Virus record (IMG/VR): IMGVR_UViG_2579778899_000010
Span: 1-10,866 of that record
Reading direction: 5' to 3' (one strand)
Length of the DNA stretch: 10,866 bases
Source: a virus
Taxonomy: Duplodnaviria; Heunggongvirae; Uroviricota; Caudoviricetes
How positions within the stretch are numbered: position 1 is the first letter of the stretch; the number at the start of each line of letters is the position of its first letter. The translations under genes and the position numbers were made by a program. Positions 1,136-10,866 of the stretch are shown in pieces. The notes under the pieces are model-generated. The model saw only the letters and a program-made list of their open reading frames with translations, had not been told where the DNA came from and did not search any database.

Positions 1136-1381
1136 ATGTTCAGGAAACCGTCGAAGCCAGAATTAAGGTATTCGGGGGTAAGAAATGAATATGTTATCTG
1201 GTGTCCAACTTGTGGTTACAGGACACGACCAGATAGTAATAAGCAGTCTGTAATTGCCGATTGGTATTTATCAAATCAGCCAGGTAATAAGCATATAGAA
1301 AATCTTTGGATTAAGCGTTACTTGGAAATCAGAGAGGGTGCGACCGTGGTCGCACAAGAAAATGAAAATAACGCCATTTAA
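1136..1381 (+). CDS. Small Cys-containing protein, putative zinc ribbon; start uncertain (1061 or 1136)
   Basis: The ORF contains WCPTCGY, and upstream FCLC if started at 1061. There is no clear SD. Its C-terminal codons (GATVVAQ) read straight through palindrome copy 1. Confidence 0.4.
   Translation: MFRKPSKPELRYSGVRNEYVIWCPTCGYRTRPDSNKQSVIADWYLSNQPGNKHIENLWIKRYLEIREGATVVAQENENNAI
1338..1355. repeat. Palindrome copy 1: GTGCGACC-GT-GGTCGCAC
   Basis: Read directly; 8-bp inverted arms around a central GT. Lies at the 1136/1362 gene junction, 6 nt before ATG 1362. Confidence 0.9.
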
Positions 1382-2897: not shown

Positions 2898-3643
2898 AAT
2901 TTTCTAAATTTTCTGAGTTGGTGAATCGTATTTTGTTGAATCGTATTTTGTCCAACAACCACAGCCATCGTCGCGATATGGATGTAACAATCGTTGTTCA
3001 TTCGCCTGGCAGCATTGGTTCAACACCTTCAGTTGAGGTTCAGTCAATTCACGCTGGTTTTGATTGGGATTCCGGGAAAGTGCTTATTTTCCCATCACAG
3101 CCACTGACCACGCTAACACCAGAACAGATTACTGATATCACTGATAGTGTGCGCAAAGGTCAGTCCTGGCACGCATATCAGGAATATAAAAATCATAAAG
3201 AGCAGTTGGAAAAATTGTCGATTGAGTTGGAATCAGCCAAAAATCACATAGCAGAACTGGAAGCCAAACCTGTAAGCCAAACTTACAAGTTAACTTTTGA
3301 GCAATGGCTGGAACAGCAGCATGACAAAATTGATGTTGATTGTGGATGTGTAAGTACTGAAATGCTTATGCACTGGATAAGGGTCGCGTATGAGGCTGGC
3401 AACTATCCGGTAACTCCGGATGGTTGGATAAGCTGTAGTGATCGAATGCCTGAAAAGGGCCAGAACGTGCTTATTTCGGTGAATTTCGATAGCTCTCTGG
3501 TTGAACCGCTAATATGCTCCGCACGCTATACCGGAAGCACCTTTCGGAGCGGAGATGCAACGATTAAGCCGGGTAATGGTATTGAGCAAGCAACTCACTG
3601 GATGCCACTACCAGAACCGCCGCAGGAGTCGAAGAGTGAATAA
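2894..3643 (+). CDS. DUF551-like phage protein (249 aa)
   Basis: ATG at 2894 after AAAGGTGA. The C-terminal portion GWISCSDRMPEKGQNVLIS...HWMPLPEPP matches what I recall of DUF551. An in-frame 15-bp tandem duplication lies near the 5' end. Confidence 0.65.
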   Translation: MKFSKFSELVNRILLNRILSNNHSHRRDMDVTIVVHSPGSIGSTPSVEVQSIHAGFDWDSGKVLIFPSQPLTTLTPEQITDITDSVRKGQSWHAYQEYKNHKEQLEKLSIELESAKNHIAELEAKPVSQTYKLTFEQWLEQQHDKIDVDCGCVSTEMLMHWIRVAYEAGNYPVTPDGWISCSDRMPEKGQNVLISVNFDSSLVEPLICSARYTGSTFRSGDATIKPGNGIEQATHWMPLPEPPQESKSE

Positions 3644-3857
3644 AGCAGAGTTATTTCAGAAAATATCGGCTCTCGCGACTGAATGCCACGCTATAGCATC
3701 TGAGCTTGATGTTGGTGATGAACGAACCGAGATGTTCGAAATATACAGTGTGCTGCGCAATCTCTGTCGGCGTGGCTACGCCACTCAAGTAGGGCGAATG
3801 ACTAACCCACTACTCTCATCCTGTGATGAGGATGACTCAGATGAGGATGACGAATGA
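3636..3857 (+). CDS. Small acidic protein (73 aa)
   Basis: GTG at 3636 with GGAG upstream, overlapping the preceding stop. The product ends in the acidic tail DEDDSDEDDE. The track's longer 3555 start overlaps the previous gene. Confidence 0.45.
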   Translation: MNKAELFQKISALATECHAIASELDVGDERTEMFEIYSVLRNLCRRGYATQVGRMTNPLLSSCDEDDSDEDDE

Positions 3858-4384
3858 TGCATAAATCAGTAGCCGGTGAGTTTCAGAAGGAAGTCGATAA
3901 TACTACCGTTCTATTGGACGATATTTTAAGCATTCTCGCGCTGCTTGAGGCTGGCGATTGGTCAGAACATTGCACTAAAACAGAGCTAGGCGGTCGGCTT
4001 GAAAGAGAGATTACACGACTTATTGGTGATGCGCAGGAAGCCACTGTCACTGGCTATGAGTTAATCGCTGAAGCTTGGCGTTTGATGGATGGACAAGACC
4101 CTAAAACCAGCGATTGGCATAGCAAGGCTTCGAAGTATTTAAATTCCAATATTGTAGAAAAAGTTGATGATGACCGTATTGAGGCCGTTAAGGCTGTGTT
4201 GCGTAGACTGGCTGGCAACTCTCCGGTAACTCCGGATGGTCATATTCAGTTTTCTGTTTCACTTCCTGCAGCGTTTGGTGGAGATAAATATTTTATTGAT
4301 GGTGTATTTCAACCTTTGAGATATGAGCGTGACTGTGAAAGGGCGGTTGTGGCCGCTGGCGGTGTAGTTAATTGGGTTAAGTAA
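3854..4384 (+). CDS. Hypothetical protein (176 aa)
   Basis: ATGA overlap with the upstream gene. It shares the peptide AGN(S/Y)PVTPDG with the DUF551-like protein, encoded by a 29/30-nt identical DNA segment. Confidence 0.65.
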   Translation: MMHKSVAGEFQKEVDNTTVLLDDILSILALLEAGDWSEHCTKTELGGRLEREITRLIGDAQEATVTGYELIAEAWRLMDGQDPKTSDWHSKASKYLNSNIVEKVDDDRIEAVKAVLRRLAGNSPVTPDGHIQFSVSLPAAFGGDKYFIDGVFQPLRYERDCERAVVAAGGVVNWVK

Positions 4385-5315: not shown

Positions 5316-5603
5316 TTAATAAACAGCGCGAATATCGATGGTTGCGCCGCAGGCATGAGCATATTTAGCCAAAGTTTTCATACTTGCCCCTAAAGGATTG
5401 CTTTCCAGGCGGCTGATGGCTGACGGTCGCAACCCCATTCGTTCAGCCAGAGCTGATTTCGTTAAACCTGCTCTTTCCCTCATTTCGTATAACATTTCGA
5501 CCATCTCCAGCTCTTTGTCGGCCTCTTCATATCCTTTGACGGCTTCTGGAGTGTTGAGGAGTTTTTCTTTTACTTCGTTAAACGGGATGCCTTTCGCTTT
5601 CAT
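5316..5603 (-). CDS. HTH (XRE-family) antitoxin of a HigA-like type II TA pair (95 aa)
   Basis: Minus-strand ATG at 5603-5601 with SD AAGGAGA 7 nt upstream, overlapping the toxin stop by 1 nt. HTH segment LTKSALAERMGLRPSAISRLESN. Confidence 0.8.
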   Translation of the reverse strand: MKAKGIPFNEVKEKLLNTPEAVKGYEEADKELEMVEMLYEMRERAGLTKSALAERMGLRPSAISRLESNPLGASMKTLAKYAHACGATIDIRAVY

Positions 5604-5914
5604 CAGTTCATCTCCTTCAGGCGAGTTCTGGCGATTTCGATAGCCTTCACCGGTGTTTTCTGTGTCTTTTTTACAAATGCATGCAATAGATAAATTTCGT
5701 TACCAGTCGCGTAGGCGTACAGCGTTCTTGCGATGTTTTTATCCCCTACTCGTAGTTCAAAAAGCCCTCCACCTATTACACGGCTATGGGGCATCTTCAG
5801 TTTGTTGCCTTCCTTCTCCAGTCGCTCAATTAATCTGGTCATGCGACCTCGCAAATCATCTGGTAGTTCAAGCAGTTCATCCAGTGCTGCAGGGTGGGTT
5901 ATCACGTTAAACAT
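5603..5914 (-). CDS. RelE/ParE-superfamily toxin, HigB/Gp49-like (103 aa)
   Basis: Minus-strand ATG at 5914-5912 with GGAGG 7 nt upstream. Product MFNVITHPAALDELLELPDDLRGRMTRLIERL...GGLFELRVGDKNIARTLYAYATGNEIYLLHAFVKKTQKTP matches the RelE-fold Gp49/HigB pattern. Toxin-first order with a coupled HTH antitoxin. Confidence 0.8.
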   Translation of the reverse strand: MFNVITHPAALDELLELPDDLRGRMTRLIERLEKEGNKLKMPHSRVIGGGLFELRVGDKNIARTLYAYATGNEIYLLHAFVKKTQKTPVKAIEIARTRLKEMN

Positions 5915-6547: not shown

Positions 6548-6565
6548 GTGCGACCACGGTCGCAC
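6548..6565. repeat. Palindrome copy 2: GTGCGACC-AC-GGTCGCAC (central dinucleotide inverted relative to the other three; flanking T/A extend it to 20 bp, 6547-6566)
   Basis: Read directly. Immediately after the stop of the 6315..6542 gene and about 85 bp upstream of the intrinsic terminator. Confidence 0.9.
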
Positions 6566-8817: not shown

Positions 8818-9208
8818 TCATTACCGTGATAACGCCATCGCCTACAAGGAGCAGCGCGACAAAAACGCCAGAGAGCTGAAGCTGGCGAACGCCACTATCA
8901 AAGACTTGCAGATCCGCCAGCGTGATGCAGCGGCGCTGGATGCCAAATACACGAAGGACTTAGCTGATGCCAAAAAGCAGCTTGATGATTTGCAGCGTTG
9001 TGTTCGCACTGGCAAGTGTGGGCTGCACCTCAACGCCAGATGTTCCGCGAACGGAGCGACCAGCACCGGCGGCCTGGGCGATGTTACCGGCCCCCGACTT
9101 ACTGACTCCGCTGAACGGGATTATTTCACCCTCAGAGAGCGAATCGTCACAGTGACGAAACAGGTTGGATATTTGCAGGAGTACATCAGGACGCAATGCC
9201 TGAATTAA
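8747..9208 (+). CDS. Rz: Rz i-spanin (153 aa)
   Basis: [49 protein letters not shown]... closely matches phage lambda Rz as I recall it: N-terminal TMD then a coiled-coil periplasmic domain, C-terminus ...YIRTQCLN. Confidence 0.85.
8967..9155 (+). CDS. Rz1: Rz1 o-spanin lipoprotein, nested within Rz in the +1 frame (62 aa)
   Basis: SD AAGGA 8 nt before ATG 8967. Signal peptide with lipobox-like ...ALASVGC, then a proline-rich mature part ending ...[11 protein letters not shown], as in lambda Rz1. Confidence 0.75.
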
Positions 9209-9249
9209 TCCATCTGCATCAAAAACGAACTCAATTTGTTGGATAGTGA

Positions 9250-9561
9250 ATGAAAATTTATATTTCCGGGCCAATGACGGGATATGAGAACTCTAATCGT
9301 GACGCCTTTAATAAAGAGGCAGATCGTTTGTCACGACATGGTCACTCTGTCTTGAATCCAGCCACTTTGCCTAATGGTCTGACACAACGTGAATACATGG
9401 ATATTTGCTTTGCAATGCTTCGTTGTGCTGATGCTATTTTGATGCTTCCTGGCTGGAAAGCGTCTGCTGGAGCAACTGCTGAGTATCATTACGCATACAA
9501 GATGGAGATGCCGGTATTCACTACGCTGAATTACCCGCCAGCTTGTTCCTCTGTAGCATAA
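9250..9561 (+). CDS. Small protein with nucleoside 2-deoxyribosyltransferase-like N-terminus (DUF4406-like), 103 aa
   Basis: MKIYISGPMTGYENSNRDAFNKEADRL... resembles the N-terminal signature of NDT-like/DUF4406 proteins. The family assignment is from memory and unverified. First gene after Rz. Confidence 0.55.
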   Translation: MKIYISGPMTGYENSNRDAFNKEADRLSRHGHSVLNPATLPNGLTQREYMDICFAMLRCADAILMLPGWKASAGATAEYHYAYKMEMPVFTTLNYPPACSSVA

Positions 9562-9580
9562 AAATCTCTTTGTTTCTCGT

Positions 9581-9598
9581 GTGCGACCGTGGTCGCAC
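9581..9598. repeat. Palindrome copy 3: GTGCGACC-GT-GGTCGCAC
   Basis: Read directly. 19 nt after the stop of the 9250..9561 gene, preceded by the boxA-like string TCTCTTTG (9564-9571). Confidence 0.9.
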
Positions 9599-9800
9599 AT
9601 TAAATACCGCGCTGCATCGTCGCCGTATTTCCGCATTAACCATGACCGTAGCCCGACGGGGAACTCCTCTGCGCGAGTGTGCGGAAATAATCAAAAACGA
9701 TGCACACCGGGTTTTTACCGCGCTAATGATTCGCGGGTTTGTCCCTCATGCTCGCCAGTCCTGTGCGAGGGTGGAAGAAACAGGGCATGTATTCAGGAGC

Positions 9801-9818
9801 GTGCGACCGTGGTCGCAC
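9801..9818. repeat. Palindrome copy 4: GTGCGACC-GT-GGTCGCAC
   Basis: Read directly. Exactly 220 bp from copy 3 (start to start), 23 nt upstream of ATG 9842. Confidence 0.9.
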
Positions 9819-9841
9819 GGTATCTTTGTCAGGAGGTTTTG

Positions 9842-10702
9842 ATGAAAGAGTTGCAAAAAATTAATTCAATAATGGAAAGATTAAGTGCTCTTGAGCGTAA
9901 GCTGGACGATTGTGGAAAGCTGTGTGTTGAAAAGCAAAATGAGCTTTACCGGGAATTTTTTACAATCGTAAGTGAGCTGATGCCAATTGTTAATAACTGC
10001 CTGATGACATCCAGATTTTTTAATGTCGATGCTACTACATCCAGAAAATTTTCTGTGAAAATTCAAGAAAGAGTTTCTGGTAGTGTGACAAGAGAGATGG
10101 CTGAACAGTTGGTGGCAATGAGCAATAAAACAAAAAGAAAAAAGGCATTGCTTGTAACAGCAAATCAGCTTTCAGGGCGCGTTGACTTTCAGGTCAGACA
10201 GGGTGGGCGTGTACTGGTAAATGATGCGTTCGTTGGACGTAGCTTTAGTCCTTACTCGATAAAATATGATGTTGATGCAGATGATCAGGATATCAGCATT
10301 TCCTGGAAATCTGAGACAGCAGGAATTGTATTAACAGCAGAGTTGTTGAGTGATGATAAAAATGATGTCCAGCATCATTTGGACGAAAAGAATCATATTT
10401 CTGAAATTTGTATGAAGCCACGCAGCGGAATGACTTTATTGTCACGCACTCTTGCTGCTGGCTTTTCTGCACCGGAAAAACGTGTGCTTCTGGTAGTGCC
10501 TGAAGATGCAGATATTCGACCACTGAATGGCTGTGATGTTATTAGTGCAAAAACATTGCATACCCGCGTCATTCCTGTACCGGATGTGGTCATTATTGAT
10601 GATGTTGAGAAATGCAAGTCTGTTTCCTCAACTGCCACAATCAAGCGAATTTTACGTTGTAGCACGTCGGCTGTTGTATTCCGGAAGCAGTTACATAACT
10701 AA
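9842..10702 (+). CDS. Hypothetical protein, 286 aa, AT-rich moron gene of unknown function
   Basis: Strong SD AGGAGG (9831-9836) before ATG 9842. Long clean ORF with no hydrophobic helices noticed and no recognisable motifs. The track's 9581 start is a GTG inside palindrome copy 3. Confidence 0.7.
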   Translation: MKELQKINSIMERLSALERKLDDCGKLCVEKQNELYREFFTIVSELMPIVNNCLMTSRFFNVDATTSRKFSVKIQERVSGSVTREMAEQLVAMSNKTKRKKALLVTANQLSGRVDFQVRQGGRVLVNDAFVGRSFSPYSIKYDVDADDQDISISWKSETAGIVLTAELLSDDKNDVQHHLDEKNHISEICMKPRSGMTLLSRTLAAGFSAPEKRVLLVVPEDADIRPLNGCDVISAKTLHTRVIPVPDVVIIDDVEKCKSVSSTATIKRILRCSTSAVVFRKQLHN

Positions 10703-10825
10703 CCAGTTTTGTTTTGCAGAACATCCTCAACTAAAAGCTTATAGAAAGAGAGCCTGAGATATTTTTTCTGTCTCTCGTAGTTGTTTATTTTTCTCGAACA
10801 GGCTTACAACTTACAGGATATAAAC

Positions 10826-10866
10826 ATGCAAGAAGAAGCAAATAAAATTCTTGTTGATTTATTGAA
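10826..10866 (+). CDS. 5' end of an unknown gene (MQEEANKILVDLL...), truncated by the window end
   Basis: ATG at 10826 preceded by ACAGGATA. Only 13 codons are visible. Confidence 0.3.
   Translation, partial: MQEEANKILVDLL

What the first reader, a model, noticed from the sequence alone, without database searches (positions are those of the whole stretch)
9842..10866. AT-rich moron downstream of the lysis cassette: a 286-aa protein of unknown function
By hand count the first 120 nt of the 9842 gene are about 30-40% G+C, visibly lower than the lysis genes, which suggests horizontal acquisition. It has its own strong SD and is preceded by the paired palindromes. The position after Rz/Rz1 is a recurrent cargo site in lambdoid prophages (bor in lambda; virulence or defence genes in others). 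I recognise no motif and saw no hydrophobic helices, so it is a candidate cytoplasmic effector, defence or anti-defence protein. The following gene at 10826 is also AT-rich.
Basis: partly seen in the sequence, partly recalled or inferred. Interest (0 to 1): 0.6.

Follow-up and report, generated by a model that had tools for sequence, protein, structure and literature searches.

The report
Accessory phage gene of unknown function
A real, selected 286-residue soluble protein gene is optional cargo just before the DNA-packaging site of an N15-like E. coli phage-plasmid; its biochemical role is unknown, and this kind of add-on gene is common in temperate phages.

Summary
ATG 9842 to stop 10702 encodes a 286-aa soluble protein behind an AGGAGG ribosome-binding site. 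G+C is 40.4% (35% in the first 120 nt), against 46-54% for the lysis genes and 57% for the head/tail genes.

The window is the right arm of an N15-like linear phage-plasmid. The gene lies in the late operon between Rz/DUF4406 and cos. A sister plasmid has an "empty site" that differs by one 1,784-bp indel, bounded by direct repeats of a conserved pre-cos segment. The gene is therefore dispensable cargo. It also occurs in integrated lambdoid prophages, always in the Rz-cos slot. dN/dS is about 0.25.

I found no sigma-70 promoter, so the gene is probably a passenger of the late transcript rather than a self-expressed moron.

The protein has three modules:
- an N-terminal helical hairpin with a CxxxC tip;
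- a beta-sandwich shared with unannotated 74-aa proteins encoded directly after Rz in Stx and other lambdoid phages;
- a rare alpha/beta domain with a degenerate Walker A motif (Lys replaced by Met).

Pfam, NCBIfam, PADLOC, PDB sequence searches and three fold searches gave nothing significant. Function is unknown. My best guess, with low confidence, is a non-enzymatic factor acting in the lytic phase. This is an ordinary uncharacterised cargo gene.

The parts
9581..9598 (+). 18-bp hairpin GTGCGACCGTGGTCGCAC, copy just after the DUF4406 stop. It marks the left edge of the first pre-cos copy.
   Evidence: four copies in the window, none expected by chance. RNA dG -13.7 kcal/mol, z -4.8. The same hairpin occurs at intergenic sites in N15, where one copy is annotated as a putative terminator.
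9609..9787 (+). Left copy of the conserved 'pre-cos' segment. In other lambdoid phages it is single-copy and lies directly upstream of cos. Here it is the left direct repeat bracketing the cargo. The right copy lies beyond the window end, at window-equivalent position about 11390.
   Evidence: 93% identity to the right ends of many lambdoid phages; second copy at L001 14076-14368; the empty-site plasmid has a single chimeric copy.
9801..9818 (+). Second hairpin copy, 23 nt before the start codon, with a weak terminator-like tail (GGTATCTTTGT).
   Evidence: It is conserved directly upstream of the gene in L020, L022 and L023.
9831..9836 (+). Shine-Dalgarno sequence AGGAGG, 5-nt spacer to the ATG.
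   Evidence: Sequence.
9842..10702 (+). CDS for a 286-aa soluble basic protein (32 kDa, pI 8.8, 7 Cys). PHROG 2571, WP_021512245-like.
   Evidence: E 6.7e-164; dN/dS 0.24-0.3.
9842..10126 (+). Module 1 (aa 1-95): two long helices forming a hairpin, with invariant C24-x3-C28 at the tip, followed by a poorly predicted linker and a third helix.
   Evidence: AF2 secondary structure in both models. Invariant residues. No homologues outside the family.
10127..10351 (+). Module 2 (aa 96-170): six-stranded beta-sandwich, homologous to stand-alone 74-aa proteins encoded directly after Rz in Stx and other lambdoid prophages.
   Evidence: 68 homologues; context; pLDDT about 81; same PHROG, profile positions 100-172.
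10409..10699 (+). Module 3 (aa 190-286): small alpha/beta domain. It has SGMT where a P-loop would have GK[ST], and VVIIDD at a Walker-B-like strand. Only one distant homologue is known (Citrobacter, 111 aa).
   Evidence: pLDDT about 70; E 0.03 to the cystovirus P4 NTPase; a lead only.
10826..10866 (+). Start of the co-inserted second cargo gene, cut by the window end. In relatives it encodes a 149-aa membrane protein with at least two hydrophobic segments (PHROG 3054).
   Evidence: Homologues sit at the ral/sieB position of the PL operon in Sf6, Oslo and HK633.

Best explanation
**Shown.** The 9842-10702 gene is a genuine protein-coding accessory gene under purifying selection.
- It has been inserted about 100-1,500 bp upstream of cos, inside the Q-dependent late operon of an N15-like phage-plasmid.
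- It is gained and lost as a cassette by homologous recombination between copies of a conserved pre-cos segment.
- It moves between N15-like plasmid prophages and integrated lambdoid prophages that share lambda-type cos and head genes.
- It is not needed for phage or plasmid maintenance.

**Inferred.**
- It has a strong Shine-Dalgarno sequence, no detectable promoter, and the same orientation as the late genes. It also lies on the only transcriptional path from the lysis genes to the head genes. It is therefore probably made late in the lytic cycle as a passenger of the late transcript.
- The protein is soluble and modular: a helical hairpin likely to drive oligomerisation, a beta-sandwich, and a small alpha/beta domain whose P-loop-like motif lacks the catalytic lysine.
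- It shows no catalytic signature. It most likely acts by binding a host or competitor component rather than by enzymology.
- My best guess is a lytic-phase host-takeover or counter-defence factor.

**Confidence by part.** The cargo and late-operon part is well supported (about 0.85). The biochemical role is a guess (about 0.3). The overall figure of 0.45 is for the whole statement taken together.
For: - **Real gene:** dN/dS is 0.24-0.29 against the 80%-identical variant (dS 0.36-0.40), and below 0.35 in every module. The main 90% cluster has 448 member sequences.
- **Cargo:** the empty-site plasmid pZ1323HEC0355-3 has one chimeric pre-cos copy and differs by a 1,784-bp indel. A duplicated pre-cos segment flanks the cassette. 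N15 has different genes in the slot. Truncated and fused variants exist.
- **Mobility:** the same cassette sits in an integrated lambdoid prophage of the MS1657 chromosome. In L020 the gene sits alone between the pre-cos segment and cos.
- **Composition:** the cassette is 38.7% G+C, against 44.7% for the right arm and 56.7% for the structural arm.
- **Late expression:** no sigma-70 promoter was found. The gene has the same strand and lies between Rz and Nu1.
- **Modules and lack of catalytic motifs:**
- **Middle-domain relatives:** they are start-overlapped or closely abutted to Rz, which makes them late genes too.
Against: - No direct expression data exist. Promoter scans by consensus are weak evidence of absence, and many prophage cargo genes are expressed from poor promoters in lysogens.
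- No homology or fold match ties the protein to any host-takeover or anti-defence family.
- The AF2 models are poor overall (pLDDT 45-49). Only one domain per model is usable.
- The non-enzymatic claim rests on missing motifs in a very shallow family.
Confidence: 0.45

Rival explanations
1. Lysogen-expressed defence or superinfection-exclusion gene. It would act alone, or as a Rex-like pair with the downstream 149-aa membrane protein: a cytoplasmic sensor plus a membrane effector that aborts or blocks infection by other phages.
For: - The slot is a known cargo site, and the cassette is AT-rich.
- The sizes and order (286-aa soluble protein, then 149-aa membrane protein) mirror lambda RexA/RexB, about 279 and 144 aa (from my own knowledge).
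- Homologues of the membrane protein sit at the ral/sieB position in Sf6, and next to sieB in phage Oslo.
Against: - No PADLOC hit for the 286-aa protein, and only a non-significant E 0.049 hit for the membrane protein.
- No Pfam hit of any kind for either the 286-aa protein or the membrane protein, so no RexA or RexB model matched, and no PDB sequence hit.
- No promoter was found.
- The two genes occur independently. The target is alone in L020, the membrane gene is alone in chicken E. coli prophages, and the truncated variant lacks the membrane gene.
Confidence: 0.25
2. Lysis-associated accessory protein. The beta-sandwich family is functionally tied to the Rz/Rz1 spanin step or to lysis timing, and this protein is an elaborated version of that family.
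For: - The 74-aa homologues are positionally locked to Rz, with the start codon overlapping or within 24-90 nt of the Rz stop. This holds in E. coli O55:H7, in Stx1/Stx2 phages and in Salmonella prophages.
- The target also always lies downstream of Rz.
Against: - Both the target and the 74-aa proteins lack signal peptides and TM segments, whereas spanins act in the envelope.
- One relative (P0024) sits between Q and the holin instead.
- Most lambdoid phages lyse without any family member. The empty-site plasmid keeps the same lysis genes.
Confidence: 0.12
3. Bacteriocin-like toxin (a 'telocin') with the downstream membrane protein as its immunity protein, as described for Klebsiella telomere phages.
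For: [quoted passage not shown]
- Here a soluble protein gene is followed by a small membrane protein gene.
Against: - No colicin, pyocin or peptidoglycan-hydrolase domain was detected.
- At 286 aa, and with no such domain detected, the protein is small for a colicin-type toxin, which from my own knowledge normally combines translocation, receptor-binding and cytotoxic modules.
- The genes occur separately.
- The membrane protein's homologues are widespread early-operon genes in phages that lack this partner.
Confidence: 0.04
4. A phage structural or packaging component, for example a cos- or terminase-associated factor. This would refute the cargo reading.
For: It lies immediately upstream of cos and Nu1, in the late operon.
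Against: - No similarity to any structural or packaging family.
- It is absent from N15 and from a near-identical plasmid with the same terminase and cos.
- It is truncated in the deposited phage genome YDC107_1 and in several plasmids from different sources.
Confidence: 0.03
5. Functionless hitch-hiker: an ORF kept only by linkage, a decaying remnant.
For: Distribution is very narrow, and truncated and fused variants exist.
Against: - dN/dS is about 0.25 over dS 0.4, in all three modules.
- The reading frame is intact across variants that share only 80% identity and sit in different phage backgrounds.
Confidence: 0.05

Closest known systems
Late-region cargo genes ('morons') of lambdoid phages, e.g. 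lambda bor and lom, Iss
   Same: - It is an extra gene present or absent between otherwise colinear relatives.
- Its base composition differs from its neighbours.
- It lies in the Rz-to-cos slot, where Bor/Iss also sit in relatives.
   Different: - bor and lom are lipoprotein or outer-membrane genes expressed from their own promoters in lysogens (from my own knowledge).
- This gene encodes a soluble protein, has the late-operon orientation, and has no detectable promoter or downstream terminator.
N15 genes 58 (C5 DNA methyltransferase) and 59, the occupants of the same slot in phage N15
   Same: Same position: after the DUF4406 gene (N15 gene 57) and before cos, in the same late operon, with the same 18-bp hairpin at the boundary.
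   Different: No sequence relationship. The target against gp59 gives BLASTP E 2.1 and hhalign probability 0.2%. gp58 has a clear enzymatic identity, and the target has none.
Unannotated 74-aa post-Rz proteins of Stx1/Stx2 and other lambdoid prophages (part of PHROG 2571)
   Same: They are homologous to residues about 98-170 of the target (30-48% identity, E down to 1e-30). They occupy the same genomic slot directly after Rz.
   Different: They are single-domain proteins. The target adds an N-terminal helical module and a C-terminal alpha/beta module that are found almost nowhere else. No member has a known function.
Lambda RexA/RexB exclusion pair
   Same: A soluble protein of about 280 aa is followed on the same strand by a membrane protein of about 145 aa, on a temperate phage (sizes from my own knowledge).
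   Different: - No sequence or profile similarity.
- It sits in the late operon rather than the immunity region.
- The two genes are not obligately linked.
RecA-like / P-loop NTPase cores (weakest lead: cystovirus P4 packaging NTPase)
   Same: - The strand-loop-helix followed by a hydrophobic strand ending in DD aligns to P4 from Walker A to Walker B.
- Low-ranked, non-significant fold hits included FliI, PilT and Upf1.
   Different: - E is only 0.03-0.1.
- The Walker A lysine is Met in every family member, including the distant one.
- The domain is only about 95 aa.
- No P-loop Pfam model matches.

Membership tests
Moron (working definition as quoted in PMC2629481, with the promoter/terminator/composition features of the Hendrix-group usage added from my own knowledge) | [quoted passage not shown] | tested here: met
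   The empty-site plasmid L024 differs from L001 by a 1,784-bp indel with identical flanks. N15 and other relatives carry different genes in the slot. The definition is quoted.
Moron (working definition as quoted in PMC2629481, with the promoter/terminator/composition features of the Hendrix-group usage added from my own knowledge) | Usually independently expressed: own promoter upstream | tested here: not met
   No sigma-70-like site lies upstream on the + strand. The best permissive match is 8 of 12 positions. A consensus scan cannot exclude a weak or non-canonical promoter.
Moron (working definition as quoted in PMC2629481, with the promoter/terminator/composition features of the Hendrix-group usage added from my own knowledge) | Own terminator downstream | tested here: not met
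   The fold of 10700-10790 is no better than its shuffles (z -0.9). The only strong hairpins lie upstream of the gene.
Moron (working definition as quoted in PMC2629481, with the promoter/terminator/composition features of the Hendrix-group usage added from my own knowledge) | Base composition distinct from the surrounding phage genes | tested here: met
   40.4% G+C against 46-54% for the lysis genes and 51-61% for the head genes. The gene falls in the lowest 4-5% of same-size windows. Another accessory region in the window is equally AT-rich.
Moron (working definition as quoted in PMC2629481, with the promoter/terminator/composition features of the Hendrix-group usage added from my own knowledge) | Expressed from the repressed prophage | not testable with these tools
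   This needs transcript data from lysogens.
PHROG 2571 (unknown function) | Full-length match to the family profile | tested here: met
   E 6.7e-164, residues 1-286 aligned to profile positions 1-291.
Known anti-phage defence systems (PADLOC-DB 2.0.0) | Match to any defence-protein model | tested here: not met
   No families matched at E <= 1.
P-loop NTPase | Walker A motif GxxxxGK[ST] | tested here: not met
   The sequence is PRSGMT. Met197 occupies the lysine position and is invariant, including in the distant homologue P0027.
P-loop NTPase | Walker B motif hhhhD[DE] | tested here: inconclusive
   VVIIDD at residues 249-254 fits the pattern, but D253 is Asn in P0027. No significant profile hit supports homology.
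Lambda RexA / RexB | Sequence or profile similarity to RexA (the soluble partner) and RexB (the membrane partner) | tested here: not met
   Neither the 286-aa protein nor the 149-aa protein has any Pfam hit at E <= 10. The 286-aa protein has no PDB-sequence hit at E <= 10.
Phage structural or packaging protein | Homology to a virion or terminase family, and conservation among relatives that share the same virion module | tested here: not met
   No PHROG, Pfam or PDB hit to such a family. The gene is absent from N15 and from L024, which carry the same Nu1/A genes and cos.
N15-like (Ravinvirus-type) phage-plasmid, as the host element of the window | N15 right-arm gene order: cro, Q, RelE/HTH pair, gp50/51, methyltransferase, lysis genes, DUF4406, cos. 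RepA lies next to the immunity region. | tested here: met
   The window is colinear at 97-99.4% with pEC21Z151-46K and phage PhiR46_1. In those records a CyRepA1/primase gene lies just upstream of cI. The gene order parallels N15 genes 48-57. telN, repA and sop lie outside the window itself.

The most novel reading that the evidence does not exclude
The protein founds an undescribed class of phage accessory factor. An oligomeric scaffold (a helical hairpin with a CxxxC tip that could bind metal) would present two modules. One is a beta-sandwich shared with a widespread but unannotated family of post-Rz proteins in Stx and other lambdoid phages. The other is a pseudo-ATPase domain. Together they would neutralise or trigger an immune pathway of the host, as a new anti-defence or abortive-infection mechanism. 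If so, the 74-aa Stx-phage relatives would be a minimal version of the same activity.
Probability: 0.2. Interest if true: 0.6.

Novelty: new member of a known kind. Interest (0 to 1): 0.3.

Why it matters
If the protein proved to be a defence or counter-defence factor, it would add a new fold family to the phage-host arms race. It would also assign a role to the unannotated 74-aa genes that follow Rz in Shiga-toxin phages, which are medically relevant.

As it stands, the practical value is modest:
- It documents the last few hundred bases before cos as a recombination-driven cargo slot shared by N15-like phage-plasmids and integrated lambdoid prophages.
- It identifies natural "with" and "without" plasmids that make a clean genetic test possible.

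Tried and rejected
- **Family libraries and PDB sequences.** Pfam, NCBIfam and PADLOC scans and phmmer against PDB sequences with the whole protein gave no hits.
- **Homologue searches.**
  - A word-indexed search of 5.8 billion proteins found only Escherichia relatives at 80% identity or more, plus fragments.
  - A full HMMER search of 1.84 billion representatives found one full-length cluster. Its few weak hits split the protein into modules.
- **Structure prediction and fold searches.**
  - AF2 with 8 sequences gave pLDDT 45.3.
  - AF2 with 51 sequences gave pLDDT 48.8.
  - Only the C-terminal domain (first model) or the beta-sandwich (second model) is usable.
  - Foldseek against the PDB on both models gave no hit at E <= 0.001, only generic lectin, CBM and FlgD beta-sandwiches.
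- **Domain profiles against PDB sequences.** The only result was a weak P4 NTPase lead at E 0.03.
- **Pfam on all 51 alignment members.** The only hits were insignificant ones to the GpJ FNIII-A domain. I followed this up with a local HMM search of the element's own J gene and all six frames, and found nothing. I rejected it.
- **Homology to N15 gp59,** the occupant of the same slot. Rejected.
- **P0024 C-terminus against the target N-terminus.** Not significant.
- **Scans for distant relatives.**
  - The C-terminal domain found only near-identical copies in IMG/VR.
  - It found none in 185,579 species-representative genomes.
  - The 74-aa protein P0038 also found none in those genomes.
- **Rfam on 9100-10866.** No hits.
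- **Literature.** Searches for the accessions, the PHROG number and the phage name found nothing. The telocin paper does not state where its toxin locus lies.
Full report
**1. The observation**

The ORF runs from ATG 9842 to the stop at 10700-10702 and encodes 286 aa. AGGAGG lies at 9831-9836, five nt before the ATG.
- G+C is 35% over the first 120 nt and 40.4% over the gene (GC3 34.8%).
- In the window, the holin is 46.2% and Rz 53.8%; the lysozyme is 48.0% on the relative's annotated coordinates.
- In the 25.7-kb relative L001, the terminase-to-tail genes are 51-61%.
- Only 4.6% (window) and 3.8% (L001) of 861-nt windows are as AT-rich. A second equally AT-rich stretch exists around 1070-2350.

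The "paired palindromes" are two exact copies of GTGCGACCGTGGTCGCAC, at 9581 and 9801. There is no hydrophobic segment. The next gene starts at 10826 and is 36.4% G+C over its full length in relatives.

**2. Where the window comes from**

The region 9200-10866 is 99.6% identical to the 46-kb E. coli plasmid pEC21Z151-46K and to phage PhiR46_1.

Their annotation shows the following order: a CyRepA1-type replication protein/primase, cI, cro, Q, exonuclease, DUF977, a RelE/ParE-HTH pair, a DNA methyltransferase, holin, lysozyme, Rz, a DUF4406 protein, the target, a 149-aa protein, then Nu1, A, W, portal and the rest of a lambda-type virion module.

This is the gene order of phage N15 genes 48-57. 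The window is therefore the right arm of an N15-like linear phage-plasmid.

The window is colinear with L001 at 97-99.4%, except for two replaced stretches at 3424-4210 and 8974-9176.

**3. The gene is real**

Against the most divergent full-length relative (80% aa identity, locus L020), dN = 0.097 and dS = 0.402, so dN/dS = 0.24. Each of the three modules is below 0.35. The main 90% cluster holds 448 member sequences.

**4. It is dispensable, mobile cargo**

*The flanking repeat.* The stretch 9609-9787 is 92-94% identical to a segment that lies within the last few hundred bases before the right cohesive end in mEp460 and many other lambdoid phages.
- In L001 this pre-cos segment occurs twice: once upstream of the target, and again at 14076-14368, about 70 nt before cosN.
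- The target and the 149-aa gene are therefore bracketed by direct repeats of about 180 bp.

*The empty site.* An N15-like plasmid with otherwise identical flanks (pZ1323HEC0355-3, L024) has DUF4406, hairpin, one pre-cos copy, cos and Nu1.
- The left half of its single copy matches the left repeat, and the right half matches the right repeat.
- This is what recombination between the repeats would leave behind.
- The DUF4406-stop-to-Nu1-start spacers (478 nt in L024; 2,262 nt in L001) give an indel of 1,784 bp.

*Other arrangements.*
- In E. fergusonii the first pre-cos copy is missing, and one hairpin separates DUF4406 from the target.
- In the prophage contig L020 (RusA, Q, HicAB) the target sits alone between the pre-cos segment with its hairpin and cos. 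There is no DUF4406 gene and no 149-aa gene.
- In the MS1657 chromosome the whole cassette sits in a classical lambdoid prophage with cII, a nin region, RusA, Q and a lambda-family holin.
- N15 itself carries gp56, DUF4406, a C5 methyltransferase and gp59 in this slot.
- Other relatives carry Bor/Iss, TonB-family, DUF1398, YlcI/YnfO, Rha or KilA-N genes there.

*Frequency and decay.* 28 of 5,426 complete E. coli genomes hold at least 80% of the cassette region. Truncated forms (208 aa) and a DUF4406-target fusion exist.

The cargo reading is well supported.

**5. Expression signals**

No sigma-70-like site precedes the gene. A permissive scan finds nothing better than 8 of 12 positions.

The hairpin at 9801-9818 (dG about -15 kcal/mol) has a weak U-tail and scores as terminator-like. 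Nothing stable follows the gene.

The same 18-bp hairpin occurs four times in the window, always intergenic (1338, 6548, 9581, 9801; none expected by chance). It also occurs in N15, where one copy is annotated as a putative terminator.

The gene has the late-operon orientation. In the plasmid prophage, where cos is internal (known N15 biology, from my own knowledge), it lies on the path from the lysis genes to Nu1. The simplest reading is co-transcription with the late genes under Q antitermination. This is inference, not measurement.

**6. The protein**

There are no Pfam, NCBIfam, PADLOC or PDB-sequence hits. The only family match is PHROG 2571, function unknown.

The exhaustive HMM search of 1.84 billion representatives found one full-length cluster. 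It also found weak hits that match either residues about 95-203 or residues about 181-257.

- **Module 2 (residues about 98-170).** This part retrieved 68 proteins, mostly 68-80 aa, from E. coli, Salmonella and Providencia.
  - In every context read, the 74-aa gene lies directly after Rz, in some cases overlapping its stop, and upstream of the terminase.
  - tblastn finds it after Rz in Stx1, Stx2a and Stx2c phages and in H-19B, usually unannotated.
  - One 181-aa relative lies between Q and the holin.
  - With this alignment AF2 gives a six-stranded beta-sandwich at pLDDT about 81.
  - Its best PDB matches are generic beta-sandwiches at E >= 0.03.
- **Module 3 (residues about 190-286).** It has only one distant relative, a 111-aa Citrobacter protein. 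None turned up in species-representative genomes.
  - A profile of it hits the cystovirus P4 NTPase from Walker A to Walker B at E 0.03. The target has SGMT where P4 has GGKT, and the Met is invariant.
  - I treat this as a lead for a degenerate, non-catalytic P-loop-like domain and nothing more.
- **Module 1 (residues 1-95).** It is predicted as a long helical hairpin with invariant C24 and C28 at the tip. It has no relatives outside the family.

**7. The neighbouring gene**

The 149-aa product has strong hydrophobic segments.

Its homologues (41-77% identity) are widespread in P22-like and lambdoid phages. There they sit in the early-left operon at the ral/sieB position (Sf6 gene 34; Oslo gp47, next to sieB).

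It also occurs without the target in the post-lysis slot of other E. coli prophages. The two genes are linked here but are not an obligate pair.

**8. Interpretation**

The confident part is the anatomy. This is a selected, soluble, modular protein encoded by a recombination-mobile cargo cassette in the pre-cos slot of the late operon.

The function is not established. I favour a late-expressed, non-enzymatic binding factor that acts during lytic growth (host takeover or counter-defence). The reasons are the transcriptional setting, the late-gene setting of its only relatives, and the absence of catalytic motifs.

The main rival is a lysogen-expressed defence or exclusion function, possibly together with the membrane protein. 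It is weakened by the missing promoter, the lack of defence-model hits and the independent distribution of the two genes.

A lysis-linked role, a bacteriocin/immunity pair, a structural role and a functionless remnant are each less likely. The reasons are given under the rival explanations.

**9. Verdict**

The independent-expression and effector parts are unproven.

The family is already catalogued as a hypothetical protein (PHROG 2571, WP_021512245). The slot is a known cargo site. This is therefore a new member of a known kind, of modest interest.

Noticed in passing
window 1338-1355, 6548-6565, 9581-9598, 9801-9818: An 18-bp hairpin, GTGCGACC(GT/AC)GGTCGCAC, recurs four times, always intergenic and on the + strand (none expected by chance). 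It also sits at intergenic sites in N15, and directly upstream of the target in unrelated prophage backgrounds. It looks like a shared module-boundary or terminator-like element that could also serve as a recombination site.
   Followed up: partly
window 9609-9787 (second copy at L001 14076-14368): A conserved 'pre-cos' segment of about 180-290 bp matches 4,900 of 5,426 complete E. coli genomes, at up to 12 places per genome. It normally lies just upstream of cosN in lambdoid phages. It has internal inverted repeats (9602-9620/9697-9715 and 9626-9635/9680-9689) and no Rfam match. Its function is unknown. It is annotated inconsistently, as small hypothetical ORFs on either strand.
   Followed up: partly
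L006 5001-5225, L010 5001-5225 and Stx phage records: A family of proteins of about 74 aa is encoded immediately after Rz in Stx1, Stx2a and Stx2c phages, H-19B, E. coli O55:H7 and Salmonella prophages. It is left unannotated in most deposited phage genomes. It is homologous to the target's middle domain.
   Followed up: partly
window 10826-10866 (full gene at L001 13625-14074): The co-inserted 149-aa membrane protein (PHROG 3054) has homologues at the ral/sieB position of the PL operon in Sf6 (gene 34), Oslo, HK633 and many P22-like phages. It is a candidate exclusion-type membrane protein that has moved between early and late operons.
   Followed up: partly
window 9250-9561: A DUF4406 protein (nucleoside 2-deoxyribosyltransferase-like; Pfam E 2.7e-34) lies between Rz and the target. 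It is conserved as N15 gene 57. In some genomes a deletion fuses its N-terminus to the target's C-terminal domain (P0093).
   Followed up: no
window 3424-4210 and 8974-9176: Two stretches are not matched by the otherwise 97-99% identical relatives. These are mosaic replacements. The second covers the 3' part of Rz/Rz1 and is unusually G+C-rich (57.7% in 8851-9150).
   Followed up: no
window 5316-5914 (- strand): A RelE/ParE toxin with an HTH antitoxin pair, equivalent to N15 genes 48/49, lies on the opposite strand inside the right arm.
   Followed up: no
L016 5697-6320 (N15 gene 59): N15 gp59, the occupant of the same pre-cos slot in N15, shows PHROG-level similarity to a segment of the central tail fibre J (E 3e-9 to 6e-13). 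It is unrelated to the target.
   Followed up: partly
L019 3641-4237 (phage YDC107_1) and plasmids H72-H75: A 208-aa truncated form of the target, lacking the C-terminal domain and the 149-aa gene, persists at about 99% nucleotide identity in plasmids from human, chicken, cat and wild-bird isolates.
   Followed up: no
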